From positions 19,857 through 83,856 of the forward strand of contig JAZRTK010000010.1 of NCBI GenBank assembly GCA_045651985.1: 64,000 bases of DNA, read 5' to 3'. Source of the DNA: Eubacteriales bacterium (GTDB taxonomy: Bacteria > Bacillota > Clostridia > Oscillospirales > CAG-272). The position numbers were made by a program, and so were the translations under genes. Below are positions 1,665-64,000 of this stretch, in pieces. The notes beneath the pieces are model-generated. The model was not told where the DNA came from. It worked only from the letters and a program-made list of their open reading frames with translations, and did no database searches. Within the stretch, counting starts at the first letter, position 1; every line of letters begins with the position of its first letter.

Positions 1665-1741
1665 TTCGACCTCCTTTAAAAGTGTATCAAATGAGACACT
1701 TATATTATACTCATTCTTTTGTACTTTGTCAACCCCAAAAA

Positions 1742-22962: not shown

Positions 22963-22991
22963 TTGACAAGAAAGGGTTTATGAGGTATAAT
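22963..22991 (+). promoter_or_regulatory. consensus sigma-A promoter of the HPr-like gene
   Basis: TTGACA (22963-22968), a 17-nt spacer, then TATAAT (22986-22991). Confidence 0.65.
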
Positions 22992-23021: not shown

Positions 23022-23252
23022 ATGACAACAGTAAATATTCGTCTCACGACACTTGAGGACGTCCGCCGTTTCGTGAATACGGTTACAAAGTACGATATCG
23101 AAATAGACCTTTGCTCGGGACGTTACGTGGTCGATGCAAAGTCCATTATGGGAATCTTCTCTCTTGACCTGCTTTCTCCTATTAAACTGACTGCTCACAC
23201 AGACGACACCTCGGCTCTGTTTGCAGATCTGAAAGATTTCATCATAGAATAA
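23022..23252 (+). CDS. HPr-fold protein lacking the phosphorylatable His15
   Basis: 76 aa. VDAKSIMGIFSLDL matches the HPr KSIMGVMSLG (Ser46) region. No His is present in the N-terminal active-site loop (LTTLEDVRRFV). Confidence 0.65.
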   Translation: MTTVNIRLTTLEDVRRFVNTVTKYDIEIDLCSGRYVVDAKSIMGIFSLDLLSPIKLTAHTDDTSALFADLKDFIIE

Positions 23253-24224: not shown

Positions 24225-25298
24225 TTATTTTATTGCGTAAAGATTCAAGTCCCACGCGGGAAGGTAGGAAAAACGGCGAAGATAAAGCTTGTAGCAGGGG
24301 TTCATTGCGTGTATCGTCAGAGGAAGCTCAAAAATATCCTCGCTTCGGTGGTACATGGATACCAGCAGGTCGGGAGCAAATCGGGAGATCGTTTGAGCCG
24401 AGCCGAAAAGAGCTTGGCGTTCCGAGCCTTCAACGTCGTATTTGATATAGTCTACGGCGCGGACGCCGAGAATATTGTCAAGTGCGTCGACCTTGACTTC
24501 CTTTGTTTTCTTGCCCGTCTGAGAAATATTTGCGTTGCGGTTCCCGCTTCCGTCAAAGAAAAGTGTGTCGGTATGGCTCCAAGCCCCGACGTTATGAAGT
24601 TCAAGCTGCAAACGGTCTTCACCTTGCGCGTATTCGGACAGCTTGCGAAAATTTCGTGAGTCAGGCTCAAGAGCCACGGCAAGCTCAAGATTGGGAGCGT
24701 ACTGAAGAAGCTCTCGCACAGTATCCCCGTTGTACGCGCCAAGGTCGGCGTAAGTGCGGTATTCGTTAGGACGCAATATTTCGCGGTAAACGGTTTGGCG
24801 GTCGGTCTCGCTTGCGCGGAGGTGGGAGATCTTTCCCGTGAGCTTTGCATTTATGACGCTCTCGTATACGCGAACAGACTCCTCGTCTGCAAAAAGGGAA
24901 GCGCACCGCTCGATCTTGTCCATATTTTCATCAACAAACTCCCGTGTAAAAAGAGTTTCGCCGAAAACGGGCACGTCGGGCACGTAAAGCTCGGTCTCCT
25001 GTGATATAGTGTAGATTCGGTCGAGCACATCGGTAAGGGAAGTGGCAAATGACACAAGGACGATAAACTCCTTGTATTTTGCCTTGATCTCGCTGTAGGA
25101 CAAGACTTTTTTGCTGTGAAAAGCGTGACCTCGGACAAATCCGTCGCTGGCAAAGAAGTCGCAGACCTCGATCCCGTATTTTTCACATACGGACAGGATC
25201 TTGTCGGCACCGTTTCCCATTCCGTACATGACCACGGGCTTGTCGGTTTTTTTCAGATACGTCCAAATATCATTTTTTTCAATATATAAATTTTTCAT
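24225..25298 (-). CDS. FkbM-family SAM-dependent methyltransferase
   Basis: 357 aa. YADLGAYNGDTV and IDYIKYDVEGSERQAL are typical of Methyltransf_21/FkbM. Confidence 0.75.
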   Translation of the reverse strand: MKNLYIEKNDIWTYLKKTDKPVVMYGMGNGADKILSVCEKYGIEVCDFFASDGFVRGHAFHSKKVLSYSEIKAKYKEFIVLVSFATSLTDVLDRIYTISQETELYVPDVPVFGETLFTREFVDENMDKIERCASLFADEESVRVYESVINAKLTGKISHLRASETDRQTVYREILRPNEYRTYADLGAYNGDTVRELLQYAPNLELAVALEPDSRNFRKLSEYAQGEDRLQLELHNVGAWSHTDTLFFDGSGNRNANISQTGKKTKEVKVDALDNILGVRAVDYIKYDVEGSERQALFGSAQTISRFAPDLLVSMYHRSEDIFELPLTIHAMNPCYKLYLRRFSYLPAWDLNLYAIK

Positions 25299-25345
25299 TT
25301 AGCACCCTAATTTTTGAGCCGCTGTGCGGCAGAATGGAGATAAAA

Positions 25346-25684
25346 ATGGATTGCTTGTTTTGTAAAATAGTAGCGGGGGACATTCCCTCGTCTAAAGTCT
25401 ACGAGGACGATTACGCTTACGCCTTCCGCGATATCAACCCTCAAGCGCCCGTGCATATCCTCATCGTTCCAAAGGAGCATATTCCTTCTGTAGACGGTAT
25501 CACAGAGGAGAACAGCACAGTCATTGCAAAGATCTTTGAGGCTATTCCAAAGATCGCGTCACAGGAAAAACTTGGCGGCGGCTACCGCGTCATTTCAAAC
25601 TGCGGCGACCACGCCTGTCAGAGCGTAAAGCATCTGCATTTCCACATTGTTGGCGGTGCTCAGCTTTCCGAGCAAATGGCATAA
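25346..25684 (+). CDS. HIT (histidine triad) family protein
   Basis: CLFCKIVAGDIPS...HLHFHIVGG. ATG 25346 lies 6 nt after GGAG; the track ATG at 25334 lies within the SD. Confidence 0.88.
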   Translation: MDCLFCKIVAGDIPSSKVYEDDYAYAFRDINPQAPVHILIVPKEHIPSVDGITEENSTVIAKIFEAIPKIASQEKLGGGYRVISNCGDHACQSVKHLHFHIVGGAQLSEQMA

Positions 25685-25695
25685 AAGATAATTTT

Positions 25696-25735
25696 TAACC
25701 CGAGAAGCATCTCGCTTCTCGGGTTAATTTTTTTA
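25696..25735. terminator. bidirectional terminator (HIT / aspartate kinase)
   Basis: A 13-bp stem TAACCCGAGAAGC/GCTTCTCGGGTTA followed by a T-run. Confidence 0.85.
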
Positions 25736-27049
25736 TTTTACGAATTCGTTGTAGATAGCTACGTGAGCCTTTTTGAGGTCTGCCTCGTCGATACCGATGA
25801 TGATGTTAAGCTCGCTTGAGCCCTGGTCGATCATGCGAATATTGACGCCTGCTTTTGAGGCGGCGTTCAGCACTCTTGCGGCAGTACCCTTAGCCTTGAC
25901 CATACCGCGGCCAACCACTGCCAGAAGCGCAATACCGTCCGTGATAGTGATAGTGTCGGGACGAACGCGTCTCTGCATGGTTGCAAGGAGCTTTTCCTTC
26001 TTGTCGGCGATAGCGGCGGTGGAAACGACCACGCACATGGTGTCAATGCCCGAAGGAAGATGTTCAAAGGATATTTCGTTGTCCTCAAGCACTTCAAGTA
26101 CCTTGCGTCCAAAGCCCAGCTCTGCGTTCATCATATCCTTTTCGATAGTAATAACAGAGAATCCTGCCTTTCCTGCGATACCTGTGATGACCTTGTCGGC
26201 ATTGTAATCGGCGGTTGAAGGAACTATCATTGTACCCCTCTTTGAGGGATCGTTTGTATTTTTGATGTTGATCGGAATGTTAGCGAAGCGAACGGGGAAG
26301 ATAGCGTCCTCGTGAAGAACGGTGGCACCCATGTAGGAAAGCTCGCGAAGCTCACGGTAGGTGATGGTATCAATGGTGCAGGGGTTCTCGATAACTCTGG
26401 GGTCTGCCATCTTGAAGCCGTCAACGTCTGTCCAGTTCTCGTAGAGATCTGCACTGCAGGCGCGGGCAACGATAGAGCCCGTGATATCGGAGCCACCGCG
26501 GGAGAAGGTCTTGATGGTGCCGTTGGGCATTACGCCGTAAAAGCCGGGAATGACCGCTCTCTTGTGCTGAGCAAGCTCCTCGCGCAAGACCTCGTTTGTC
26601 TTGTCCGCGTCGAAGGAACCGTTGTCACGGAAAAGAATAACATTCTCCGCATCGATAAAATCAAATCCAAGATACTTTGCAAGAATAAGACCGTTTAAGT
26701 ATTCGCCGCGGCTTGCCGCAAAGTCACGGCCCGAACGATGGCGGAGCGCGTTCTTTACGTAAGTCAGCTCGCCGCTGATGTCAAAATCAAGTCCTAAGTC
26801 GGAAATGATCTCGCAGTATCTCTTTTCGATAAGTCCGAAGTATTCATCGATATTCTCGCCGCGCTTTACCATTTCATAGCAATTGTAAAGCATATCGGTG
26901 ACCTTCACGTCATCGGAAAAACGCTTTCCCGGCGCGGAAGGGATAACGTAACGTCTTGCGGGGTCGGCTTTGATAATGCCTGCCACCTTACGGAACTGCT
27001 CTGCATCTGCAAGCGAGCTTCCGCCGAATTTTACGACTTTAAGCTGCAT
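25733..27049 (-). CDS. aspartate kinase
   Basis: 438 aa from ATG 27049. VVKFGGSSLADAEQF, SRGGSD and C-terminal ACT repeats are present. Confidence 0.88.
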   Translation of the reverse strand: MQLKVVKFGGSSLADAEQFRKVAGIIKADPARRYVIPSAPGKRFSDDVKVTDMLYNCYEMVKRGENIDEYFGLIEKRYCEIISDLGLDFDISGELTYVKNALRHRSGRDFAASRGEYLNGLILAKYLGFDFIDAENVILFRDNGSFDADKTNEVLREELAQHKRAVIPGFYGVMPNGTIKTFSRGGSDITGSIVARACSADLYENWTDVDGFKMADPRVIENPCTIDTITYRELRELSYMGATVLHEDAIFPVRFANIPINIKNTNDPSKRGTMIVPSTADYNADKVITGIAGKAGFSVITIEKDMMNAELGFGRKVLEVLEDNEISFEHLPSGIDTMCVVVSTAAIADKKEKLLATMQRRVRPDTITITDGIALLAVVGRGMVKAKGTAARVLNAASKAGVNIRMIDQGSSELNIIIGIDEADLKKAHVAIYNEFVK

Positions 27050-27108
27050 AGTGGTATAAACTCCAATCTGCCGCAAAATGCGGCTTCAAATAAAAAATAG
27101 ACTATTAT

Positions 27109-27137
27109 ATTATATTTTATAATGCGGGCAAAGTCAA
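27109..27137 (-). promoter_or_regulatory. putative aspartate-kinase promoter
   Basis: On the minus strand: TTGACT (27137-27132), a 17-nt spacer, then TATAAT (27114-27109). Confidence 0.55.
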
Positions 27138-27202
27138 GTGATTTTTTGCAGTTTTCGTATATTTTTTGCGGTTTTCTGCATAAAACCGAGGTTTTTAAAA
27201 AC

Positions 27203-27231
27203 TTGACAAAAAAAAGAGGGCATGGTATAAT
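27203..27231 (+). promoter_or_regulatory. perfect-consensus sigma-A promoter of the TerB/ATPase operon
   Basis: TTGACA (27203-27208), exactly 17 nt of spacer with TG at -15/-14, then TATAAT (27226-27231). Confidence 0.7.
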
Positions 27232-27268
27232 ACTATAATACCCAATTTTGATATGAGGAGGTGTCGAA

Positions 27269-28861
27269 ATGAAGGGCGACGACAAGTTCTGGTCACTTGA
27301 CGAGTTTGCTCCAAGGAAAACTATCTCGCGCCCCCAAAATCGTGACGTTGAAGCGGTTGAGATAAGCTTTGAGAGCGAAGAAAAAATAATTTCAAGTGTC
27401 CGCGAAATGACGTCCGACGGAATTTCAAAGGAAGAAATCCGGATGCGCCCCGACACCACCCTGACAGAACGGATAATTACCGCGATGCCAAGCAAAATCG
27501 TGGAAAGTGCGACACCGGATGAGGAATACGAAAGCGAGCTGCGCTTTATAGGACACGTGAAATTGTTCCACAGGAAGGATTACGGCTATTACGAGAGCTT
27601 CCTTGCAGACGGCAAACGGCTTTTTGATGAGAGCCGAGAGGGCGTTCCTTACTATTCTTATTTTTCCTACGTCCCTCAGTATTCTCAGCTGTCGCTTGGA
27701 CAGCTCGACTGCTATTTTGACCTGCGCCGTCAGATAAGGGCAGGGGGTGCGCCAAAAGCTGAATACAGCTATATTCTGCTCTATATAAGCGAGCTGATAA
27801 ATATTGACCCCGATACTCGGTCCGTGCCGAGAAAGCTTGCCCATCTGTGGCAAAGCTACCGCCGTATATATCCCAAGCTTGACGCGCTTATCCCCGAATG
27901 GATAACGGATTACTGTCTTCTTACCCGCACCATGCCGCCAAAGGGACTGAATAGCGAGCTTGAAGAATATATTTTCACCCATGCGTCACTTCGCGAGCTG
28001 TTCTTTTCGGGCAAGGACGATGACGTGAAAAAGCTGGTGGATTCAGGGGCTTACACCACCTACGATTACAGAAAAAGCAAGTTTGCAACCCAAGAAAACC
28101 TGCCTATTTTTGAGCAGATAATCCCCGCTGTTGTTGCCGTTACCTTGCGCCGTCTGGGAAGTGAGGGTAAGCTTCGATACGGCACGGGTAAGCTGAACCG
28201 CGATATGTTTACGGGTCTGCTCTGTACTCCTGCCAGAAAGTGCCGCGTTGAGGTGGACTATATTTCACTTTCCCGCTCCCACGAGGTGCGATATATCGTC
28301 ACCGACGCAGTAAAGCACGCGGAGAACAGGATACGCGCTTATCTTGGAATAAAATCCCGCCTGACTGTTTACAGCCTGCCCGCAGAGGATAGAAAAATAA
28401 TAGATTCTATGGTCACGGAAATGCTTGGCGGTGAGAAAAAGCCAAAGGCGGAGGAAGAAAAAACGGAATATTCTCACCTTTACGAGCTTCCAAAGCACGA
28501 ATTTTCGCTTGATATGGCAAAGAAGATAGAGGAGGAATCCTGGCAGACCACCGAACGCCTCATCGAAGCATTTGAGGAGAAAACGATTGAGGTTGCTCCC
28601 GCCGTGATATTCGAGACGACGGCGGAGGAAGGAGACCTTACTGTCGCCCTTTCCGAATATATTGATTTCGTCCGAGCAGCTCGGGATGGAGACTTTTACT
28701 CGCAACGCGCATTTGCCGACGCACGGGGACTGCTCGTGGGCTCTGTCGCCGACCGAATAAACGAAATTTCCGCCGACATTCTCGGAGATATTCTGCTTGA
28801 GGAATGTCCCTCGGGCTACAAAATAATTGATGATTACGCACAGGAGTTAAAAGATGTCTGA
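27269..28861 (+). CDS. TerB-N / TerB-C domain protein (Shango SngA-like)
   Basis: 530 aa with SD GAGGAGGTG. Residues ~125-180, YYSYFSYVPQYSQLSLGQLDCYFDLRRQIRAGGAPKAEYSYILLYISELINI, match the TerB_N signature as I remember it (aromatic-rich, YxxM/LxxxQ, Y/W-R, SYxFLYxYELIN). The C-terminal ~120 aa (LDMAKKIEEESWQTTERL...INEISADILGDILLEE...IIDDY) is TerB_C-like. No TM segment or signal peptide is present. Confidence 0.7.
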   Translation: MKGDDKFWSLDEFAPRKTISRPQNRDVEAVEISFESEEKIISSVREMTSDGISKEEIRMRPDTTLTERIITAMPSKIVESATPDEEYESELRFIGHVKLFHRKDYGYYESFLADGKRLFDESREGVPYYSYFSYVPQYSQLSLGQLDCYFDLRRQIRAGGAPKAEYSYILLYISELINIDPDTRSVPRKLAHLWQSYRRIYPKLDALIPEWITDYCLLTRTMPPKGLNSELEEYIFTHASLRELFFSGKDDDVKKLVDSGAYTTYDYRKSKFATQENLPIFEQIIPAVVAVTLRRLGSEGKLRYGTGKLNRDMFTGLLCTPARKCRVEVDYISLSRSHEVRYIVTDAVKHAENRIRAYLGIKSRLTVYSLPAEDRKIIDSMVTEMLGGEKKPKAEEEKTEYSHLYELPKHEFSLDMAKKIEEESWQTTERLIEAFEEKTIEVAPAVIFETTAEEGDLTVALSEYIDFVRAARDGDFYSQRAFADARGLLVGSVADRINEISADILGDILLEECPSGYKIIDDYAQELKDV

Positions 28862-30221
28862 CATCATTTCGCAAAAGATACCCAAAAGAATACTTTCATC
28901 TCTGCTTGCGTCGGTCTCGGCGGGAGTAGTGCCGCGAAGCGGTGCGCCATATATTGCTATCGGCCGCCGAGACGAGATAGAAGCGTTGCTCTCCGACCTT
29001 GAGGAAACGGGCGAGGGCGGCTCAAGAATGAGATTTCTCATTGGACGATACGGAAGTGGTAAGAGCTTTCTTATCCAGCTTATCCGAGGCTACGCTCTGG
29101 AGCGCAATTTTATTACCGCCGATGCGGACCTGTCCCCCGAGCGCCGTCTGTACGGCAGTAACGGGTCTGGAATTGCCACCTACCGTGAGCTTATAAAAAA
29201 TCTTGCCTCGAAGACCTCGCCCGACGGCGGAGCTTTGTCAAAGCTTGTCACCCGTTGGATAGACGATATCCGTGCAGCTCTCGTAAGGGAGGGATATTCG
29301 CTGTCCGACCCCGCGCTTGATACGGCGCTTGAAGCTCGTGTTTATGAGGAGATGCGCAGTATTGAAGGACTTGTGGGCGGTTTTGATTTCGCGCGTATCA
29401 TGGTTGAATTCTACCGAGCTTACGTCTTGGGTGACGAGGACAAAAAGTCTGCTTGTATGCGTTGGCTGAGAGGTGAGTACGCCACAAAGACTGAGGCACA
29501 GTGTGCCCTACGTTTCCGCGTTTCACTTATTATAGATGATGATAACTGGTACGATTTTATAAAGATCTGGGCGTCTCTTGTGCGCAAAATGGGATACCGC
29601 GGACTAGTTGTCTTTATAGACGAGTGCGTTAACCTTTATAAGATAACCCACCGCGTGTCCCGCGAAAACAACTACGAAAAGATACTTTCAATGTTCAATG
29701 ACACCCTGCAGGGACGTGCCGAGGGACTTGACATCATCATGGGCGGTACTCCTCAATTTCTGGAGGACACCCGCCGAGGACTGTTTTCATACGAGGCGCT
29801 GAAAAGCCGTCTTTGCGACAGCAGATTTGCAGGAAGTGAATTTAAAAATCTTATCGGTCCCGTCATCCGACTGCGACGACTGTCCGACGAGGAGCTTTTT
29901 GCGCTCATAGGCAGGATAACGAAGCTTTACGCGCAAAATTACGGATGTGAGCCGAGGATTTCCGAGGAGCAGATGCAGAAGTTTTTGTCAATTTGCCTTG
30001 ACCGCGCGGGCGCGGATATGATGATAACCCCCCGTGAGATGCTCCGAGACTACATGACGGTGCTCAATATCCTTATGCAGAACGAGAACGCTACATTTGA
30101 GCAGATTATCGGCGAGACCGCGGTGGGGGGAGCAAGCCCTGCACCGACGCAGGAAAAGAAAGAAGAAACGGTGCCTGCGCCCCGCACCCCCGATTTCAAC
30201 CCCGAAGATATAGAATTTTAA
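28854..30221 (+). CDS. DUF2791 / BrxC-BrxD-family P-loop ATPase (Shango SngB-like)
   Basis: 455 aa. Walker A is GRYGSGKS (aa 64-71) and Walker B is LVVFIDE (aa 251-257). The N-terminal LSSLLASVSAGVVPRSGAPYIAIGRRDEIEAL and the TPREMLRDYMTVLNIL tail are typical of DUF2791 proteins. The ATG overlaps the upstream stop by 8 nt. Confidence 0.72.
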   Translation: MSDIISQKIPKRILSSLLASVSAGVVPRSGAPYIAIGRRDEIEALLSDLEETGEGGSRMRFLIGRYGSGKSFLIQLIRGYALERNFITADADLSPERRLYGSNGSGIATYRELIKNLASKTSPDGGALSKLVTRWIDDIRAALVREGYSLSDPALDTALEARVYEEMRSIEGLVGGFDFARIMVEFYRAYVLGDEDKKSACMRWLRGEYATKTEAQCALRFRVSLIIDDDNWYDFIKIWASLVRKMGYRGLVVFIDECVNLYKITHRVSRENNYEKILSMFNDTLQGRAEGLDIIMGGTPQFLEDTRRGLFSYEALKSRLCDSRFAGSEFKNLIGPVIRLRRLSDEELFALIGRITKLYAQNYGCEPRISEEQMQKFLSICLDRAGADMMITPREMLRDYMTVLNILMQNENATFEQIIGETAVGGASPAPTQEKKEETVPAPRTPDFNPEDIEF

Positions 30222-30236
30222 AAGATGGAGATCAAT

Positions 30237-31262
30237 ATGTTATATTTTTCAAGTGATTACCAGCAGGCGTGCCACCCCGAGATACTTCGCCGTATAGCGG
30301 AGACCAATTACGAGGGTAATTCGGGCTATGGCACCGACGAACACTGTAAGATTGCAAAGGAGAAGATAAAGGCGGCTTGCGGTACTCCCGATGCTGAGAT
30401 TTTCTTTATTCCCGGCGGCACCCAGACCAATATGCTGGTGCTCAATACCATCCTTGCGCCTTATGAGGGTGTGATCTCTGCCGAAACGGGACACATTCAG
30501 GGGCACGAGGCGGGTGCGGTTGAGTTTACGGGACATAAAATTCTGACGATTCCCGGCTACGAGGGCAAAATAAAAGCCGCCGACCTGCGTGCAAGACTGC
30601 GTGCTTATGCCGACGACGATAACCGAGAGCATACCACGCCCGCAGGTGCTCTTTATATCTCGTTCCCCACCGAATATGGAACTATTTATTCAAAGTCCGA
30701 GCTGACCGAAATTTACTCAATCTGCCGCGAGTACGCTATACCCCTGTTCATCGACGGCGCGCGCCTTGGATACGGTCTTATGAGTCCTGAGTGCGACCTG
30801 ACATTGCCTGAGCTTGCACACCTGTGCGACGTTTTCTATATCGGAGGCACGAAGATGGGGGCGCTTATGGGCGAGGCGGTGGTATTCACACATGCAAATA
30901 TGCCAAAGCATTTTTTCACCTCGGTAAAACAGCACGGCGCGCTTCTTGCGAAAGGTTGGCTGCTTGGGCTCCAGTTTGAAACGCTTTTCACCGACGACCT
31001 TTATTTTAAGCTCGGCAAAAACGCAATTGATTGCGCCATGAAGCTGAAAAAGCTGCTTGTTGAAAAGGGCTATAAACTTCACCTTGATTCTCCCACAAAT
31101 CAGCAGTTTGCGTTGGTTGAGGACAGCCTGCTTCCAAAGCTGGCAGAGAACGTCAGCTATGGCTTCTGGGAAAAGCCCGACGAGACCCACACGGTCATTC
31201 GCTTTGCAACGGGCTGGGCAACACGTCCGGAAGACGTGGAGGAGCTGGGAAAGTATCTGTAA
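30237..31262 (+). CDS. threonine-aldolase family PLP-dependent enzyme (Beta_elim_lyase fold)
   Basis: 341 aa. GGTQTN, DGARL and the IGGTKMG Lys region align by eye with E. coli LtaE (TGTQAN, DGARI, LSKGLG). The start lies 15 nt after the ATPase stop, with no terminator between them. Confidence 0.75.
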   Translation: MLYFSSDYQQACHPEILRRIAETNYEGNSGYGTDEHCKIAKEKIKAACGTPDAEIFFIPGGTQTNMLVLNTILAPYEGVISAETGHIQGHEAGAVEFTGHKILTIPGYEGKIKAADLRARLRAYADDDNREHTTPAGALYISFPTEYGTIYSKSELTEIYSICREYAIPLFIDGARLGYGLMSPECDLTLPELAHLCDVFYIGGTKMGALMGEAVVFTHANMPKHFFTSVKQHGALLAKGWLLGLQFETLFTDDLYFKLGKNAIDCAMKLKKLLVEKGYKLHLDSPTNQQFALVEDSLLPKLAENVSYGFWEKPDETHTVIRFATGWATRPEDVEELGKYL

Positions 31263-31263
31263 T

Positions 31264-31296
31264 AAAAAAACGGACTGCAACGCAGTCCGTTTTTTA
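31264..31296. terminator. bidirectional terminator (aldolase gene / ispE)
   Basis: Stem AAACGGACTGC/GCAGTCCGTTT, flanked by A- and T-runs. Confidence 0.85.
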
Positions 31297-32166
31297 TTAC
31301 ATTGTTTCACATACAAACGCTCTTGCACCACTTTGACGGATAATTTTAGCCGCCTTTTGCGCCGATTCGGCTGAGTCAAAAAGACCGTAGACCGAGGGAC
31401 CGCTGCCGCTCATCATAGCAGAGAGGGCGCCGTTTTGCATCATTTTCCCTTTGAGAACATCGACCATAGGTCGTACGGGTGGCACTGCCGATTCAAAAAT
31501 ATTGAATGTTTTACCCGCGACGTCTCGTTCGTCCGAGTGCTCAAGAGCGGAGATCAGCGAGTCGAATTTTTCGGAATTTTGGTTGCCTTCTTTAAAATCT
31601 CCGAACATTCGGTCAAGCTCGCCGTATGCCCAAGGGGTTGACACACCCTCGCCGTCAATAGCGATCATCACGTGGAGCTTTGGACAAGCAGGGCAGAGTT
31701 CAAGAACGTCACCTATACCGCGAGTTATCTTCGTTCCTCCGAAAAGGCAGAAGGGTACGTCCGCGCCAACTTTTGAGGCTATTTTTATAAGCTCGGAGTC
31801 GGACAAATCTGCGCCCGTCAGCTCGTTTAAACTCATTATGACCGCCGCTCCGTCGGTGCTTCCTCCCGCAAGACCTGCCGCCATTGGAATGCGCTTTTCT
31901 ATATGTATCTTTGCGCCCGCGCTGATGCCTGTAAACTCAAAGAATTTGTGGGCAGCCCGAACGGCAATATTGCTGTTATCACATGGCACGCCCTCAACGT
32001 TTGATGAGACGGAAAAAGTGCCGTCTGTCAGCTCGGTCGTCACCGTGTCCGAGAGTGACACCGACTGCATCACGCTCAAAATGTCGTGGTAACCGTCCCT
32101 GCGCTTTTGTGTGACGTCAAGAAAAAGATTTATTTTTGCATACGCCTCTCGGCTTTGTGTTTTCAT
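31297..32166 (-). CDS. ispE: 4-diphosphocytidyl-2-C-methyl-D-erythritol kinase
   Basis: 289 aa from ATG 32166. AYAKINLFLDV...KRIPMAAGLAGGSTDGAA (GHMP motif). Confidence 0.9.
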   Translation of the reverse strand: MKTQSREAYAKINLFLDVTQKRRDGYHDILSVMQSVSLSDTVTTELTDGTFSVSSNVEGVPCDNSNIAVRAAHKFFEFTGISAGAKIHIEKRIPMAAGLAGGSTDGAAVIMSLNELTGADLSDSELIKIASKVGADVPFCLFGGTKITRGIGDVLELCPACPKLHVMIAIDGEGVSTPWAYGELDRMFGDFKEGNQNSEKFDSLISALEHSDERDVAGKTFNIFESAVPPVRPMVDVLKGKMMQNGALSAMMSGSGPSVYGLFDSAESAQKAAKIIRQSGARAFVCETM

Positions 32167-32316
32167 TCTGTATCTCACTTTCGCCGTCGTTTTTATAATT
32201 CTACCATATTGCCACCGAATTATCAACATTTTCTTGAAAATATACCTTTTTACTTGATTTTGTTCTGAAAAAGGAGTATAATTAAAGAGCAAATTTTATT
32301 TGAAAGAGGTACAAAA

Positions 32317-33120
32317 ATGAAAGAATTTCTCATGGACCTTGCTGCTTGGGCCACCACCAAGGGCATATCTATCGTTGCCGCGCTTCTTATCCTCGGAATC
32401 GGTTGGGGGATCGTTTCCTCTATATCGAAGAAGCTCAAGACGGGTAAGTACGGAAAGAAAATGGACCCCACAGTACGCAACTTCGTGGCAAACTTCTGCA
32501 ATATCGGATTGAAGATTGTTCTCGTGGTGACTGTTGTCGTTATCATGGGTGTGCCTGAGGCTTCAATTGCGGCAGTACTTGCATCTGCGGGTGTTACTAT
32601 CGGTCTTGCTTTGCAGGGCGGTCTTTCCAATATCGCCAGCGGAATCATTCTGCTTATCACTCGTCCGTTCTCCATCGGTGATTTCGTAACCGTTGCGGGC
32701 GAAAGCGGAACGGTTACAGACATCAACATATACTACACCACCATTCTTACCCCCGACAACAAGACTATCACCGTTCCCAACTCTGCGGCGTCCACGTCCA
32801 ACATCACCAATTTCTCGATCGAGAACAAGAGACGTATTGCCATTGACGTGCTTGTGGCTTACGGGACAGATACCGAGCTTGTAAAATCTACTCTGCTTGA
32901 AATTGCGAATTCCAACGATAAGGTCCTGCGCGACCCTGCACCCGAGGCTGTTCTTACAACCCTGGGCGACAGAGGAATCAGCTTCTCTCTGAGAATGTGG
33001 GTAGATAACTCCGACTTCTGGAACGTTACCTTTGCGGCAAACGAGGCAGTCAAGGCTTCCTTTGAGGAGAAGGGAATATCCGTTCCCAAGACACAGATAA
33101 ATCTTCACCAGGCAAAGTGA
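32317..33120 (+). CDS. small-conductance mechanosensitive channel (MscS family)
   Basis: 267 aa with three TM segments, then ITRPFSIGDFVTVAGESGTVTDINIYYTTILTPDNKTITVPNS. Confidence 0.85.
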   Translation: MKEFLMDLAAWATTKGISIVAALLILGIGWGIVSSISKKLKTGKYGKKMDPTVRNFVANFCNIGLKIVLVVTVVVIMGVPEASIAAVLASAGVTIGLALQGGLSNIASGIILLITRPFSIGDFVTVAGESGTVTDINIYYTTILTPDNKTITVPNSAASTSNITNFSIENKRRIAIDVLVAYGTDTELVKSTLLEIANSNDKVLRDPAPEAVLTTLGDRGISFSLRMWVDNSDFWNVTFAANEAVKASFEEKGISVPKTQINLHQAK

Positions 33121-33632: not shown

Positions 33633-33674
33633 GATATCGTAAAAGAAATAAAAAGCGCGAGGGGAGTGCCTAAA

Positions 33675-34481
33675 ATGGAATACATCGATAGAATTAAAAA
33701 GATCAAAAGCGAAAAGAAGATCACAAACGAGAAGCTGTCCGAGATGACCGGAATACCGCTGGGTACGCTGAGCAAGATCATGGCGGAGATAAGCGACTCG
33801 CCGAAGTTCGTCAATATCCTCTCTATCTGCGAGGCGCTGGGTTGCTCGGTTAACTACATCGTGACAGGAGAGCCCGATAACAACAATAACTGCTACCTTG
33901 AGGTGGGTGAGATGAACCTTATCGACAGCTACCGCCGTCTGGATACCCACGGTCGTGAGCTGGTCGCCCTCGTATTAAATAAGGAAGCGGAGCGCATCAC
34001 AAAGGCAGATTACGGAATCGGAGCAGAGCCTCAGAGGAAGTCCGCAAAGATCCTTACTCCCAAGAAGCCCGCGTCAAAGCCCGCATCGCAGAAGAGCGCG
34101 GCAGAGTATGGCAGACGCGTTATCTCGCTTTTCGAGATGCCCGTCTCCGCAGGTCGCGGCGTTTACCTTGACGGAGGAGCTGCCGACGAGATCAACATTC
34201 CCGATACGGTCAAGACCCGCAGCGCGGATTACGCTCTGCGCATCAGCGGAAACAGTATGGAGCCCAAGTATCACAACGGCGATATTCTGCTTATCCAGAA
34301 CTGCGACAGCGTCGAAATAGGAGAGCTTGGAATTTTCGTTCTCGACGGCGAGGGATACTTCAAGCAGTTCGGCGGCGACCGCCTAATTTCCCTCAATCCC
34401 GAATACCCCGATATTCCTCTCAGCGATTTTTCCGACGCGGAATGCTGCGGCAGAGTTGTTGGACGGCTTAAAAAGAAATAA
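33675..34481 (+). CDS. XRE-family HTH plus S24 (LexA/CI-like) self-cleaving repressor
   Basis: 268 aa. The N-terminal HTH is KITNEKLSEMTGIPLGTLSKIM. A basic linker follows, then the S24 core ISGNSMEPKYHNGDILLIQ...GRVVGRLKK. Confidence 0.8.
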   Translation: MEYIDRIKKIKSEKKITNEKLSEMTGIPLGTLSKIMAEISDSPKFVNILSICEALGCSVNYIVTGEPDNNNNCYLEVGEMNLIDSYRRLDTHGRELVALVLNKEAERITKADYGIGAEPQRKSAKILTPKKPASKPASQKSAAEYGRRVISLFEMPVSAGRGVYLDGGAADEINIPDTVKTRSADYALRISGNSMEPKYHNGDILLIQNCDSVEIGELGIFVLDGEGYFKQFGGDRLISLNPEYPDIPLSDFSDAECCGRVVGRLKKK

Positions 34482-60833: not shown

Positions 60834-61775
60834 TTACGGAGCTTGTGTCTCCGCATTTTCAAAAAGCGGAGCAAAGGTTTCTTTGTTTGTGACGAGGTTG
60901 AAATATTCGTCAAGCTCGTCTATCGTCATTCCGTCGCGGAAAAGATTGTCGGTAAGACCAAGCTGTGTCAGCAGTCCGTTTGTATATTCGATCATGTCTG
61001 CCGTCCTGCTGATGTAATACTTATTGTTTGATCCGGATTGCTTTTGGTAAAAATCCTCGGGCAAGCAGATCTTATCGTCCTTAACCGGAACCAGATCCGG
61101 CTTGTTCATGTCACGGTCACCTAACGGCATCCAACCGTATGCGGTCTTACAATCGTACTCACCATAAAGAAGATGCGGATAATCTATATAACCAAAAAAC
61201 ATCGAAATGAAGTATTTTTCTCCAGAGACTATATCTGCGGCGAACTCGGATTCTATCAAAATAATATCATCGTACTCAGCCATTATTTCGTCCTTGTTAG
61301 GATAGTCCAACACGAAATTAAGATAAGTCTGTGTGCGGTCTATGCCCAACTCTTCTTCTTTTTCTATCATAGCCTGAGTGTTGAAGAAGCTTTCATCGGA
61401 ATAAGCCGTTGCCTCGAATTTTTTGTGTATCTTTGCCGGAAATATAGCAAATTCACTCTCCCTTGTTTCTCTTCCCCCTGTGAATGTGAGTACGGATTCA
61501 CCGCCCGCCGAATCAACCGTCAAAATCGGCTCTCCGAATTCAGCAATTACGGCAGACTTCCTATTGAAAGCCGAATATTCGGTCATAACCCATTCCGGTG
61601 GGCATACCGTATGAGTATCAATGTACTCGTAGGTATCTTGATTGGATGTTTCTCGCGTTTCCGATTGCACAGCTTCGGTATCGTTCTCGGTATGCCGTCC
61701 GTCGTTGACAGGAATATTGTTGCAGGAAGTCATAAGAAACAAGACACTCATACAAATTGCAAAAATTTTCTTCAT
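60834..61775 (-). CDS. hypothetical lipoprotein (313 aa)
   Basis: SD AGGAGG is present. The signal peptide and lipobox are MKKIFAICMSVLFLMTSC. GC is lower than the flanks. I recognise no family. Confidence 0.6.
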   Translation of the reverse strand: MKKIFAICMSVLFLMTSCNNIPVNDGRHTENDTEAVQSETRETSNQDTYEYIDTHTVCPPEWVMTEYSAFNRKSAVIAEFGEPILTVDSAGGESVLTFTGGRETRESEFAIFPAKIHKKFEATAYSDESFFNTQAMIEKEEELGIDRTQTYLNFVLDYPNKDEIMAEYDDIILIESEFAADIVSGEKYFISMFFGYIDYPHLLYGEYDCKTAYGWMPLGDRDMNKPDLVPVKDDKICLPEDFYQKQSGSNNKYYISRTADMIEYTNGLLTQLGLTDNLFRDGMTIDELDEYFNLVTNKETFAPLFENAETQAP

Positions 61776-61791
61776 TTATTTAACCTCCTTT

Positions 61792-63678
61792 TTATCGAGT
61801 CACCGAAATAGTGAAAGCTTTCGTAGAAGAAACAGAGAAATTGGTGACCATTAAAATAAATTTGTTGTTTGAATTATTTAATCCGAAATTGTCAATTTGA
61901 TAAACGATACGCGTCTCATCGCTTTTTGTGTGTTCTATACTAGATGATGAATTGATTCTGGTAAACAGATTGAAAAGACAATTTCCAGTTGATTCCGCCG
62001 TAATATAAACAGTCCCAATATTCTCGGTATATGAATAACTAAAATAGTGATTGGAAAGTGGAGCAATACTATTATTTGTAATGAATGACGGAATGTAGTT
62101 TTGCTGCGAACACTGAACTGCTGGCCAAAGGTCCTGAATATAATAATCTCGCGCAATCTCAAAACCTAAGTTTTGATTAGTCGGGAATAAAATAGCTATT
62201 GACATTTCGTCGAAAATAGCATCGAAATCAAATCTTTGCCCATTATATGTTCCGTATATCGATTCAAATTCTGGAGAAGTATTATCATAATTTTCAAATA
62301 TGTTTTTTATTGTTGACCAACCACCATGATTTTGATAAATACACAGCGGAAAAACAAACGCACCGTATTCACGTGTCGCTGTATCAGATGTCAAGGACAA
62401 GTTGGGCGTACCGACAAAATCTTCAAGGTAGCCGCGAAACTCGCTGAATCCAGCTGAGGAATTGAGATAATTAGGATTGGAATAATTTGAATAAATCAAA
62501 GATGCCATGGTTGCAAAAGATTCATTAAACCATAAGTCCGCACCGACAGTTAGGTATTTAATCATGATCGCATGCATAAACTCATGCGCCAAGGTGCGCT
62601 CTGCTGTTCCATTTTGGACAATCGGAGTATGGATAAGGATATCTGATCTTCCACCAGTATATGCACGTGTTCTACCAAGGGCTTGTTCAATTGGTGTGAT
62701 GTATAGATACAAGTAATTCCCCGAGCTTGTCGGACTGGCGAACCCATTAGTAATACAAAAGTATCTGTATATGTTTGTCAATTGTGACTTGAACGCATTA
62801 AGATTTGACAAATTATTGGTGAAGTCATTTGCGTTATACCTGATTTGCATTGTGTAACTTCCAAAACCAATGTCGTAAGTACTGTCATATTCAATGGCAG
62901 CCTCGTTAACAGCTCTACCTTCACCGTTCATAACTTGAACACAATTATGCTCGTATAACAGTTCGCCATTTTGCAAATATATATCGCTTTTTTCCTCCTC
63001 GGTAATTTTCCCGAGAGAGCAGAGCAAATCAGCTTTTTCTATTTCGCTGTAATCTGAAATATCAAAGCTCTTGGAATATCTGTAATTTCTGCCGTTCGTA
63101 ACGATGGTTCCGCTGAGTGTATAGCTGTTTATATCTTTGAAATTCTTCGAGGTGTCGAGCTTTCCCGTTTCTTTTAAAACAGAACTTTCGCTATCTTCAA
63201 CTATATCGTAGTCGGTGTAAACTTCCGTTCCGTCGGCAGCTCTAAAAACGGCGTAGAAGCTACCGCCGCTGTAATCTGCTTCTGCGGTTGCAATAGCCGA
63301 CAAGATAACGCTATCATTCGTTCTTGTGGGAATGATAAATTGTGTATGCTTGGATATGCCGTAATTAGCGGGAAGTGTCTCTACGCTTATAGTATATGAG
63401 CAATACAGCGAAGGCTTGACAAATTCAAAATCTCCGTCAGCATCGGCATATACCGATCTTTCGTAGGTCTCAACGTAATAAAGGAAATTACCTGTCTCGT
63501 CGTATTTGGGGGCTGACGAATAAATTTCTATCTCAATATCAGACAGGTCAATATTATCTCCGCTGACTACCTTTCCTGAAAAAACTTGGGTTAATCCTAA
63601 TGCACTCGTTGATACGATCAGACAGAAAAGCATCGAAATACATACTAATATTGATGTTATGCGGTATCTTTTTAACAT
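61792..63678 (-). CDS. secreted hypothetical protein with a gluzincin-like HEFMH...NESFA motif (putative zinc metalloprotease)
   Basis: 628 aa with SD AAAGGAG and a signal peptide. The HEFMH motif is encoded at 62572-62586. An N-terminal beta-rich region resembles a carboxypeptidase-regulatory or Cna-B-like domain. GC is very low. Confidence 0.6.
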   Translation of the reverse strand: MLKRYRITSILVCISMLFCLIVSTSALGLTQVFSGKVVSGDNIDLSDIEIEIYSSAPKYDETGNFLYYVETYERSVYADADGDFEFVKPSLYCSYTISVETLPANYGISKHTQFIIPTRTNDSVILSAIATAEADYSGGSFYAVFRAADGTEVYTDYDIVEDSESSVLKETGKLDTSKNFKDINSYTLSGTIVTNGRNYRYSKSFDISDYSEIEKADLLCSLGKITEEEKSDIYLQNGELLYEHNCVQVMNGEGRAVNEAAIEYDSTYDIGFGSYTMQIRYNANDFTNNLSNLNAFKSQLTNIYRYFCITNGFASPTSSGNYLYLYITPIEQALGRTRAYTGGRSDILIHTPIVQNGTAERTLAHEFMHAIMIKYLTVGADLWFNESFATMASLIYSNYSNPNYLNSSAGFSEFRGYLEDFVGTPNLSLTSDTATREYGAFVFPLCIYQNHGGWSTIKNIFENYDNTSPEFESIYGTYNGQRFDFDAIFDEMSIAILFPTNQNLGFEIARDYYIQDLWPAVQCSQQNYIPSFITNNSIAPLSNHYFSYSYTENIGTVYITAESTGNCLFNLFTRINSSSSIEHTKSDETRIVYQIDNFGLNNSNNKFILMVTNFSVSSTKAFTISVTR

Positions 63679-63777
63679 AGTTGGCTCCTTTCGGTGTTGA
63701 AAACCAAACGTCCTTACTGAAATTTTCGATTTCTGTCTGCATCGTTATCACTTCCTTTCTTTTCCATTTGCAACTAT

Positions 63778-63806
63778 ATTGTATCATAGACCTTGGTGAA
63801 AGTCAA
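63778..63806 (-). promoter_or_regulatory. putative promoter of the low-GC two-gene operon
   Basis: On the minus strand: TTGACT (63806-63801), a 17-nt spacer, then TACAAT (63783-63778). Confidence 0.5.
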
Positions 63807-63852
63807 TATAAAAAGTTTGTATGTGATCGTATTTTTTTGCAAAAAACACACA

Positions 63853-64000
63853 TTACTGCGCATAAATTCGTCTCGAACTTGTCTTTTTATCTTGCTGGTT
63901 TTCCTTCTTTTCTCCTTTGAAAATTCCGCGAAGCCACCTCATATCCTCGCGGTCGATAACGCCCGTAAGACGAACGAAAATAAGATAGATCAAAACCGCC
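63853..64000 (-). CDS. 3' end of a gene truncated by the window edge (hydrophobic then basic C-terminal tail, possibly a flippase/polysaccharide-biosynthesis-type membrane protein)
   Basis: Own translation of the minus strand: ...AVLIYLIFVRLTGVIDREDMRWLRGIFKGEKKENQQDKKTSSRRIYAQ*, with the stop codon at 63853-63855. The function is a guess. Confidence 0.35.
   Translation of the reverse strand, partial: AVLIYLIFVRLTGVIDREDMRWLRGIFKGEKKENQQDKKTSSRRIYAQ

What the first reader, a model, noticed from the sequence alone, without database searches (positions are those of the whole stretch)
27203..30221. Helicase-less Shango-like pair: TerB-N/TerB-C protein translationally coupled to a DUF2791/BrxD-family ATPase
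**Seen in the sequence**
- A perfect TTGACA-17-TATAAT promoter (27203-27231) drives a 530-aa protein.
- The core of that protein (YYSYFSYVPQYSQLSLGQLDCYFDLRRQIRAGG..YSYILLYISELINI) and its tail (..INEISADILGDILLEE..) look like TerB_N plus TerB_C.
- Its last 8 nt overlap the ATG of a 455-aa P-loop protein (Walker A GRYGSGKS, Walker B VVFIDE) that looks like DUF2791 / BrxC-BrxD.

**Established knowledge, as I recall it**
- Aravind and colleagues noted TerB-N/C plus DUF2791 ATPase plus SF2 helicase as a mobile conflict-type operon.
- That trio was later shown to be the anti-phage system Shango (SngA/B/C).

**Inference**
- No helicase is encoded anywhere in the flanks. Aspartate kinase lies divergently upstream and a PLP enzyme lies downstream.
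- This is therefore either a minimal two-component variant with a different or absent effector, or a non-defence use of the sensor/ATPase pair.
- It is the clearest candidate system in the window and has no experimentally defined function.
Basis: partly seen in the sequence, partly recalled or inferred. Interest (0 to 1): 0.75.

Follow-up and report, generated by a model that had tools for sequence, protein, structure and literature searches.

The report
Shango defence pair that lost its helicase
Two coupled genes of the Shango anti-phage family (a TerB-type protein and an ATPase) sit here without the helicase that normally follows them; a whole group of related gut bacteria shares this loss yet keeps both genes under strong selection, so the pair probably works on its own.

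Summary
A perfect TTGACA-17-TATAAT promoter drives a 530-aa TerB_N/TerB_C protein. Its last 8 nt overlap the start of a 455-aa BrxC_BrxD-family ATPase. PADLOC calls them SngA (3.3e-39) and SngB (3.9e-167). No SngC helicase lies in the 64-kb window.

The pair is a derived state. In related gut and rumen Clostridia, 69 of 71 informative loci outside this lineage carry SngC directly after SngB. The window belongs to a clade (92% bootstrap, with a shared 3-residue deletion in SngA) in which 0 of 12 informative loci carry SngC.

Both genes are intact in every locus. Their dN/dS values (SngA about 0.10, SngB 0.03-0.05) match helicase-bearing lineages and flanking housekeeping genes. The promoter is identical in four species.

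The downstream PLP aldolase is co-transcribed only in the window's genus, so it is a passenger and not a replacement effector.

Best reading: a helicase-less, selectively maintained SngA-SngB variant of Shango. The mechanism is inferred, not shown. An sngC gene elsewhere in these genomes could not be excluded.

Verdict: new variant of a known kind, moderate interest.

The parts
27203..27231 (+). Sigma-70-type promoter of the operon: TTGACA, 17-nt spacer, TGgTATAAT (extended -10)
   Evidence: 12/12 match with TG. Perfect matches expected by chance: 0.00. The block is identical in the window, L001, L002 and L085, although coding dS is about 0.5-1.2.
27255..27261 (+). Ribosome-binding site GAGGAGG, 7 nt before the sngA ATG
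   Evidence: Read directly from the sequence.
27269..28861 (+). sngA-like gene, 530 aa. N-terminal about 80 residues are disordered and carry a conserved FW..L.P motif. TerB_N is aa 86-220, a helical/beta middle domain is aa 221-390, and TerB_C is aa 401-528.
   Evidence: Pfam TerB_N 2.1e-12 and TerB_C 4.8e-6. PADLOC SngA 3.3e-39, covering 48-525 of 528 profile positions. AlphaFold2 model with mean pLDDT 80.8. Invariant F7, W8 and P15. dN/dS 0.09-0.11.
27524..27928 (+). TerB_N domain of SngA. It is 136 residues here, with a 3-residue deletion shared by the helicase-less clade.
28469..28852 (+). TerB_C domain of SngA. The last roughly 75 residues have a helix-helix-helix-helix-hairpin-helix layout.
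   Evidence: Pfam. Secondary structure of the model. Foldseek gives only weak, non-significant matches to winged-helix DNA-binding domains (E about 1).
28842..28861 (+). Translational coupling junction: AGGAG, 7 nt, then the sngB ATG (28854), which overlaps the sngA stop (TGA 28859-28861)
28854..30221 (+). sngB-like gene, 455 aa: an ORC/Cdc6-type AAA+ ATPase of the BrxC_BrxD (DUF2791) family
   Evidence: Pfam BrxC_BrxD 7.8e-154. PADLOC SngB 3.9e-167 and BrxD 2.3e-45. NCBIfam BrxD scores 153.6 bits, below its cutoff of 350. The fold is closest to the BrxC N-terminal ATPase, HslU, RdrA and ORC/Cdc6. dN/dS 0.03-0.05.
29043..29066 (+). Walker A motif GRYGSGKS (aa 64-71)
   Evidence: G64 to S71 are invariant in 48 homologues.
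29607..29624 (+). Walker B motif VVFIDE (aa 252-257)
   Evidence: D256 and E257 are invariant.
30204..30218 (+). Conserved acidic/aromatic C-terminal tail of SngB (EDIEF; family consensus IDDIEF), after a variable disordered linker
   Evidence: I453 and F455 are nearly invariant across the family, including helicase-less members. The tail region has low pLDDT.
30225..31262 (+). PLP-dependent threonine-aldolase-like gene (Beta_elim_lyase). It is co-transcribed with the pair but is a passenger, not a conserved partner.
   Evidence: Pfam 8.9e-26. It starts 3-15 nt after the sngB stop, with no terminator between. It follows sngB only in L001, L002 and L085, not in the other clade members.
31264..31296 (.). 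Bidirectional intrinsic terminator that closes the operon: a 9-bp stem ACGGACTGC/GCAGTCCGT flanked by an A-run and a T-run
   Evidence: Read directly from the sequence. It lies between the aldolase stop (31260-31262) and the convergent ispE-like gene.
27109..27137 (-). Divergent promoter of the aspartate kinase gene (TTGACT-17-TATAAT). Context only, not part of the system.
   Evidence: 11/12 match.

Best explanation
This is a Shango-family locus reduced to its first two genes.

Shown:
- sngA (TerB_N/TerB_C protein) and sngB (BrxD-like ORC/Cdc6-type AAA+ ATPase) are translationally coupled.
- They are transcribed from a strong, conserved promoter, together with a passenger aldolase gene, up to a bidirectional terminator.
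- The third Shango gene, sngC (a BrxHI/Lhr-like SF2 helicase), follows sngB directly in almost all related Clostridia. It is missing here and in every informative member of the window's clade.
- Both remaining genes are intact and under purifying selection as strong as in helicase-bearing lineages.

Inferred:
- sngC was deleted once, in the common ancestor of this clade.
- SngA-SngB kept a function that does not need a linked SngC.
- Most likely mechanism: SngA is the sensor/adaptor, with conserved short motifs at its N-terminus. SngB assembles into an ATP-dependent oligomer, probably on DNA as its ORC/Cdc6 and BrxC relatives do, and interferes with invading DNA.
- In canonical Shango, SngB would load or activate SngC. 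Here that step is either dispensable or done by an unlinked host helicase.
For: Family assignment.

No helicase in 64 kb.

Canonical state in relatives: the gene after sngB in relatives is SngC (PADLOC 4.9e-239; DEAD + Helicase_C). It is present in 69 of 81 loci, mostly 3-60 nt after sngB.

Helicase-less clade:
- The SngB tree groups window+L001+L002 with L003+L006+L020+L027 at 92% NJ bootstrap.
- The clade shares a 3-residue deletion and four fixed substitutions in SngA.
- Further clade loci L081, L082, L085, L086, L089, L090 and L091 also lack SngC within 8-10 kb.
- Total: 0 of 12 informative loci in the clade, against 69 of 71 outside it.

Functional retention:
- All SngA and SngB reading frames are intact.
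- dN/dS is 0.09-0.11 for SngA and 0.03-0.05 for SngB at dS 0.5-1.2. Flanking genes give 0.02-0.09. Helicase-bearing lineages give 0.05-0.26 for SngA, 0.03-0.09 for SngB and 0.02-0.10 for SngC.
- The promoter is identical in four species.
- Walker motifs are invariant.

Fold and analogy:
- The SngB fold is nearest the BrxC ATPase and ORC/Cdc6.
- BrxD is described as a standalone ORC/Cdc6 AAA+ protein, tightly linked to the BrxHI helicase, and proposed as its loader (PMC12839542).

Independent losses with SngAB still intact: L031 and L070.
Against: - An sngC copy elsewhere in these genomes could not be searched for. Only 64 kb of the window and +/-8-10 kb of the other loci were available.
- All relatives are metagenome-assembled genomes.
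- No experiment exists on this pair, and the mechanism of Shango itself is unpublished. The sensor/loader roles are therefore analogies.
- If SngB is only a helicase loader, a loader kept without its helicase is hard to explain. That favours a helicase supplied in trans.
- The conserved C-terminal tail of SngB is retained. If it is the SngC docking site, it points the same way.
- The tree is neighbour-joining on one protein.
- Housekeeping neighbourhoods give no independent support for a defence role.
Confidence: 0.55

Rival explanations
1. Split system: the genomes of this clade still encode SngC at another locus. The pair is an ordinary three-component Shango whose helicase gene has moved.
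For: - BrxD-type ATPases are proposed to be helicase loaders and are normally tightly linked to their helicase.
- The SngB C-terminal tail and the SngA N-terminal motif, which are possible docking peptides, are fully retained in the helicase-less clade.
- Selection on SngAB is unchanged, as expected if the whole system still works.
- The rest of each genome could not be examined.
Against: - There is no SngC in 64 kb of the window or within 8-10 kb of 11 other clade loci.
- In relatives, sngC is nearly always within tens of nucleotides of sngB, so relocation with kept function would be unusual.
- SngC is also missing in two unrelated lineages, L031 and L070. Simple loss explains three events more easily than three relocations.
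Confidence: 0.2
2. Non-defence role: in these gut Clostridia the Shango-like genes are a resident chromosomal DNA-processing or stress-response module. The SngA-SngB pair carries out a housekeeping task, for example an ATP-dependent response to DNA or envelope stress, and not phage defence.
For: - Relatives were confirmed in 191 species genomes. SngB is about 70% identical across the 80 loci kept and is always next to SngA.
- Its neighbours are housekeeping genes: ilvA, ridA, ilvB, ribF, dacA-like, holB, nrdR, lysC, asd, a DAP dehydrogenase and sufCD.
- The window has no defence island.
- dN/dS equals that of housekeeping genes.
- Sub-clades share local synteny, which suggests vertical descent.
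Against: - The family is experimentally anti-phage in E. coli and P. aeruginosa.
- Elsewhere it is mobile. SngB homologues occur on 694 plasmids, 542 of them conjugative, as canonical trios in the two examples read.
- SngA evolves about 2-4 times faster than SngB, as sensors of variable targets often do.
- Genes are inserted between sngB and sngC in some relatives, and sngC has been lost repeatedly. That shows flexibility typical of accessory genes.
Confidence: 0.2
3. Decaying remnant: the helicase was deleted, and the two remaining genes are non-functional leftovers on their way to loss.
For: The effector-like component of a validated three-gene system is missing. PADLOC and DefenseFinder rules, as I recall them, would not call this a system.
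Against: - Frames are intact in all 12 clade loci.
- dN/dS is 0.03-0.11 at near-saturated dS.
- The promoter, ribosome-binding sites and gene overlap are conserved.
- Catalytic motifs are invariant.
- Within the clade, SngB identity is down to about 70-75%, which means long persistence after the loss.
Confidence: 0.03

Closest known systems
Shango anti-phage system (SngA TerB-domain protein, SngB ATPase, SngC DEAD/DEAH helicase; Millman et al. 2022, Johnson et al. 2023)
   Same: Both proteins are full-length matches to the PADLOC SngA and SngB models. The gene order and tight coupling are the same as in relatives and in plasmid-borne trios. The nearest relatives outside the clade carry the complete trio.
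   Different: There is no SngC at the locus, or anywhere in 64 kb. The loss is shared by a clade and is followed by continued purifying selection. The locus is chromosomal, among housekeeping genes, and not in a defence island or on a mobile element. Pfam detects TerB_N and TerB_C but no TerB core domain.
BrxD-BrxHI dyad of type 2 (Pgl) BREX
   Same: SngB matches BrxD (PADLOC 2.3e-45; NCBIfam 8.3e-45). The missing SngC matches BrxHI (2.2e-130). BrxD is a standalone ORC/Cdc6-type AAA+ ATPase that is tightly linked to its helicase.
   Different: The NCBIfam BrxD score (153.6 bits) is far below the equivalog cutoff of 350. The window contains no PglZ, BrxC, PglX or PglW. The partner here is a TerB_N/TerB_C protein, and the helicase is absent.
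BrxC ATPase of type 1 BREX (PDB 9zll, 9zdx) and ORC/Cdc6 initiators
   Same: These are the best structural matches of the SngB model (E 1.8e-4 to 1e-2). Walker A and B motifs are conserved, and an oligomeric, DNA-associated ATPase is expected.
   Different: TM-scores are low (about 0.3) and the model has moderate confidence (pLDDT 69). There is no sequence-level match to any solved structure. SngB lacks the extra domains of BrxC.
TerB-N/TerB-C + DUF2791 ATPase + SF2 helicase operons (Anantharaman, Iyer and Aravind 2012; recalled from memory, the paper was not held)
   Same: The same two domain families appear in the first two genes.
   Different: The helicase is missing. I could not check whether that paper already lists helicase-less versions.

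Membership tests
Shango (PADLOC/DefenseFinder definition) | SngA: TerB_N/TerB_C protein matching the SngA model | tested here: met
   PADLOC SngA 3.3e-39, profile positions 48-525 of 528. Pfam TerB_N and TerB_C both score above their gathering cutoffs.
Shango (PADLOC/DefenseFinder definition) | SngB: DUF2791/BrxD-like ATPase adjacent to SngA | tested here: met
   PADLOC SngB 3.9e-167. The genes overlap by 8 nt.
Shango (PADLOC/DefenseFinder definition) | SngC: DEAD/DEAH SF2 helicase in the same gene cluster | tested here: not met
   There is no SngC hit among 51 window ORFs and no tblastn hit. The aldolase gene starts 3-15 nt after sngB. In relatives, SngC is found at that position.
Shango (PADLOC/DefenseFinder definition) | Confers resistance to phage when expressed | not testable with these tools
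   Shown only for E. coli and P. aeruginosa trios in the literature.
BREX type 2/6 (BrxD-containing) | Core genes BrxC/PglY, PglX methyltransferase and PglZ in the cluster | tested here: not met
   The PADLOC scan of all window ORFs returns only SngA, SngB/BrxD and one PDC-M43B candidate hit.
BREX type 2/6 (BrxD-containing) | BrxD equivalog-level match | tested here: not met
   NCBIfam BREX_BrxD scores 153.6 bits against a cutoff of 350.
Tellurite-resistance Ter operon | TerB core domain with terC/terD/terZ-type neighbours | tested here: not met
   Pfam reports only TerB_N and TerB_C for SngA. The neighbours are lysC, HIT, an aldolase, ispE and MscS.
ORC/Cdc6-type AAA+ ATPases | AAA+ fold with Walker A/B and similarity to ORC/Cdc6/BrxC | tested here: met
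   AAA_16 scores 3.5e-8. Walker residues are invariant. Foldseek gives BrxC 1.8e-4 and ORC/Cdc6 at probability 0.97-1.0. The model has only moderate confidence.

The most novel reading that the evidence does not exclude
SngA-SngB is a self-sufficient two-gene module: a TerB_N/TerB_C sensor plus an ORC/Cdc6-type ATPase. It acts without any SngC-class helicase. That would mean the helicase is an accessory and not the effector of Shango. It would also mean a minimal 'Shango-II' exists as a long-lived, vertically inherited chromosomal system in gut Oscillospiraceae-like Clostridia, possibly with a role beyond phage defence.
Probability: 0.35. Interest if true: 0.7.

Novelty: new variant of a known kind. 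Interest (0 to 1): 0.5.

Why it matters
Shango is a validated anti-phage system, but no published mechanism turned up in the literature searched here. A natural lineage that deleted the helicase yet kept the other two genes under strong selection is a ready-made genetic dissection. It predicts that SngA and SngB form the functional core, and that the helicase is either dispensable or replaceable.

The pair is only 3 kb and is easy to clone and test. The data also show that in gut and rumen Clostridia the Shango genes behave like stable chromosomal residents among housekeeping genes, whereas in Enterobacteria homologues sit on conjugative plasmids. This bears on how defence systems become domesticated. 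Annotation tools that require all three genes will miss this clade.

Tried and rejected
- The PLP aldolase as a replacement effector: rejected. It follows sngB only in the window's genus. Other clade members have a dockerin protein, GH2, a Thi4-like protein, FeoB or ComEC there, often on the opposite strand.
- Remnants of sngC between sngB and the aldolase: none. The gap is 3-15 nt.
- A riboswitch or other RNA element in 25000-33000: no Rfam match at E <= 0.1.
- Compositional island: GC is 0.48-0.52 across the locus, like its surroundings.
- Solved structures by sequence for SngA or SngB: none.
- Foldseek of the SngA model: no significant match, only weak winged-helix hits at E about 1. I do not rely on this.
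- Domain gain in SngA that might compensate for the missing helicase: none. The architecture is the same, apart from a 3-residue deletion.
- Relaxed selection after the loss: not seen.
- Phage-borne homologues: none in 50,697 phage records.
- Source contig of the window, by exact-protein look-up: not on record.
- L095, a possible basal member of the clade: the contig ends at sngB, so it is uninformative.
- The Anantharaman/Aravind 2012 paper could not be read.
- Literature search for a Shango mechanism found none.
- My first gene-calling pass wrongly reported 'no SngB ORF' in 15 loci, because over-long upstream starts were rejected. Frame checks corrected this.
Full report
**1. The observation**

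The two ORFs are as described.
- The first is 27269-28861 (+, 530 aa) and the second is 28854-30221 (+, 455 aa).
- The second ATG sits inside the last codons of the first gene (ATGTCTGA, an 8-nt overlap). An AGGAG lies 7 nt upstream of it.
- Upstream there is TTGACA (27203-27208), 17 nt, then TGgTATAAT (27223-27231), followed by a GAGGAGG ribosome-binding site.
- Perfect TTGACA-N17-TATAAT sites occur three times in the window, against 0.00 expected from shuffles.
- The promoter block is identical in four species of the same genus, although synonymous divergence in the coding regions is 0.5-1.2.

The family assignments hold.
- Pfam gives TerB_N (2.1e-12) and TerB_C (4.8e-6) for the first protein, and BrxC_BrxD (7.8e-154) for the second.
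- PADLOC gives SngA (3.3e-39) and SngB (3.9e-167) over nearly the full profiles.
- The NCBIfam BrxD equivalog is matched only below its cutoff: 153.6 bits against 350.

No helicase is present.
- The ten largest ORFs have no helicase domains; one of them has no Pfam hit at all.
- None of the 51 window ORFs of at least 120 aa hits SngC or any other helicase-type defence model.
- tblastn with 57 SngC homologues finds nothing.
- GC content is unremarkable.

**2. What relatives show**

A scan of one genome per species with SngB confirmed relatives in 191 species. The 80 best loci are all gut or rumen Clostridia/Oscillospiraceae MAGs.
- SngA always precedes SngB.
- SngB is about 70% identical to the window protein, but SngA is only about 35% identical.
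- In most loci a protein of about 745 aa follows SngB. It is SngC: PADLOC 4.9e-239, next-best hit BrxHI, Pfam DEAD + Helicase_C.

The tblastn tabulation of 81 loci gives:

| State | Loci |
|---|---|
| SngC present, mostly 3-60 nt after sngB | 69 |
| No SngC, with at least 2.5 kb of downstream sequence | 7 (window, L001, L002, L020, L027, L031, L070) |
| Uninformative | 5 |

**3. The helicase-less state is a clade character**

- In an SngB tree, window+L001+L002 (100% bootstrap) is sister to L003+L006+L020+L027 (100%). The two groups join at 92%.
- The SngA proteins of this clade share a 3-residue deletion in TerB_N and four fixed substitutions. Their domain architecture is otherwise unchanged.
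- I fetched further members through exact-protein look-ups. They are L081, L082/83, L085, L086-88/92, L089, L090 and L091, from ruminant and human (Hadza) gut samples.
- None of them has SngC within 8-10 kb. tblastn confirms this, while the same queries detect the SngC genes of two plasmid trios as positive controls.
- The totals are 0 of 12 informative loci inside the clade and 69 of 71 outside it.
- L031 and L070 are two further, isolated losses.

**4. The pair is maintained, not decaying**

- Every SngA and SngB frame is intact.
- dN/dS values are as follows:

| Comparison | SngA | SngB | SngC | Flanking genes |
|---|---|---|---|---|
| Window, L001, L002, L085 (dS 0.5-1.2) | 0.09-0.11 | 0.03-0.05 | absent | 0.02-0.09 |
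| Helicase-bearing species pairs | 0.05-0.26 | 0.03-0.09 | 0.02-0.10 | not computed |

- There is therefore no sign of relaxed constraint after the loss.
- Walker A and B residues are invariant.

**5. Operon and neighbours**

- The aldolase-like PLP gene starts 3 nt after the sngB stop, or 15 nt if the second ATG with its GGAG is used. There is no terminator in between.
- A clean bidirectional terminator follows the aldolase gene at 31264-31296. In this genus the transcript is therefore sngA-sngB-aldolase.
- The aldolase follows sngB only in L001, L002 and L085. Elsewhere in the clade the next gene is a dockerin protein, GH2, a Thi4-like protein, FeoB or ComEC. The aldolase is thus a passenger that came to abut sngB.
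- Upstream genes in the clade are repeatedly lysine-pathway genes: lysC, asd and a DAP dehydrogenase. This hints at ancestral synteny.
- Neighbourhoods of complete trios are also housekeeping: ilvA, ridA, ilvB, ribF, holB and nrdR.
- By contrast, SngB homologues at 40-51% identity sit on 694 plasmids, 542 of them conjugative, mostly in Klebsiella and Salmonella. The two examples I read are canonical trios. None occurs in the phage collection.

**6. Structure and mechanism**

*SngA.* The model is confident (pLDDT 80.8).
- About 80 N-terminal residues are disordered and carry an invariant FW...P motif.
- A folded core spans aa 85-390.
- A helical C-terminal part follows.
- No solved structure resembles it significantly.

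*SngB.* The model is moderate (pLDDT 69).
- It is closest to the BrxC N-terminal ATPase, HslU, RdrA and ORC/Cdc6.
- It ends in a disordered linker and a conserved IDDIEF-type tail.

*Literature.*
- A 2026 survey describes BrxD as a standalone ORC/Cdc6 AAA+ ATPase that forms a tightly linked dyad with the BrxHI helicase, and proposes that it loads or activates that helicase (PMC12839542).
- No mechanism for Shango itself is published. The only proposals are 'membrane surveillance' ideas based on TerB.

*My inference.* SngA senses, and SngB assembles on DNA in an ATP-dependent way. In the trio, SngB hands over to SngC. In this clade that last step is either dispensable or done by another helicase. 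These steps are inferred.

**7. Rivals**

- An unlinked sngC is the main rival (0.2). I could not search whole genomes. The retained terminal motifs and the unchanged selection are what one would expect if the helicase were still present somewhere.
- A non-defence role is plausible (0.2), given the housekeeping contexts and the apparently vertical inheritance.
- A decaying remnant is effectively excluded (0.03).

**8. Verdict**

The locus fails the three-gene definition of Shango, so it should not be filed as a complete Shango system. It is a helicase-less derivative, conserved across a clade: a new variant of a known kind. Interest is moderate (0.5), because it offers a direct test of which Shango components are essential.

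Noticed in passing
L001-L080 (for example L021:8381-13588, L034, L041): In gut and rumen Clostridia the complete Shango trio sits among housekeeping genes (ilvA, ridA, ilvB, ribF, a D-Ala-D-Ala carboxypeptidase, holB, PSP1, nrdR). Sub-clades share local synteny, and SngB and SngC are 70-90% conserved. It looks like a vertically inherited chromosomal resident and not an island gene.
   Followed up: partly
window 28854-30221 and 27269-28861; alignments A1 and A2: Two conserved terminal short motifs flank disordered segments. SngA has an N-terminal D.FW.(L/I)..L.P motif, with F7, W8 and P15 invariant in 80 sequences. SngB has a C-terminal IDDIEF-type tail. They are candidate docking peptides, and both are retained in the helicase-less clade.
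   Followed up: partly
L018:4898-9584; L014:4240-5334; L019:11331-12203; L079:11579-12950: Some relatives have genes inserted between sngB and sngC: a NAGPA-domain gene in L018 (where SngC is also split over two frames), EutH in L014, a PHP-domain protein in L019, and three small ORFs in L079.
   Followed up: partly
window 25733-27076; L081:7185-8261; L090:4017-5093; L089:6855-7847: The genes immediately upstream of the helicase-less pair are repeatedly lysine/DAP-pathway genes: aspartate kinase, aspartate-semialdehyde dehydrogenase and a DAP dehydrogenase. This may be ancestral synteny or coincidence.
   Followed up: no
window 61000-64000 (ORF 61792-63678, minus strand): GC drops to 0.39, against about 0.50 elsewhere. 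The 628-aa ORF there has no Pfam hit. It may be foreign DNA.
   Followed up: no
window (member not identified): One window ORF of at least 120 aa hits the PADLOC candidate-system model PDC-M43B (3.8e-12). The output does not say which ORF.
   Followed up: no
window 33666-34481: An HTH + Peptidase_S24 (LexA/CI-like) gene is the most constrained gene in the neighbourhood (dN/dS 0.016-0.020; 96-98% identity to L001 and L002).
   Followed up: no
window 1704-1732 (minus strand) and 22963-22991 (plus strand): Two further perfect TTGACA-17-TATAAT promoters occur in the window. The second lies just before a 76-aa HPr-like ORF (23022-23252).
   Followed up: no
P0045, P0047 (SngB homologues): Some NCBI MAG records name SngB homologues 'biotin carboxylase'. 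This looks like a misannotation.
   Followed up: no
L084:2916-5672: One clade member has an MmeI-type restriction-modification gene two genes upstream of the pair. This is the only defence gene seen near any helicase-less locus.
   Followed up: no
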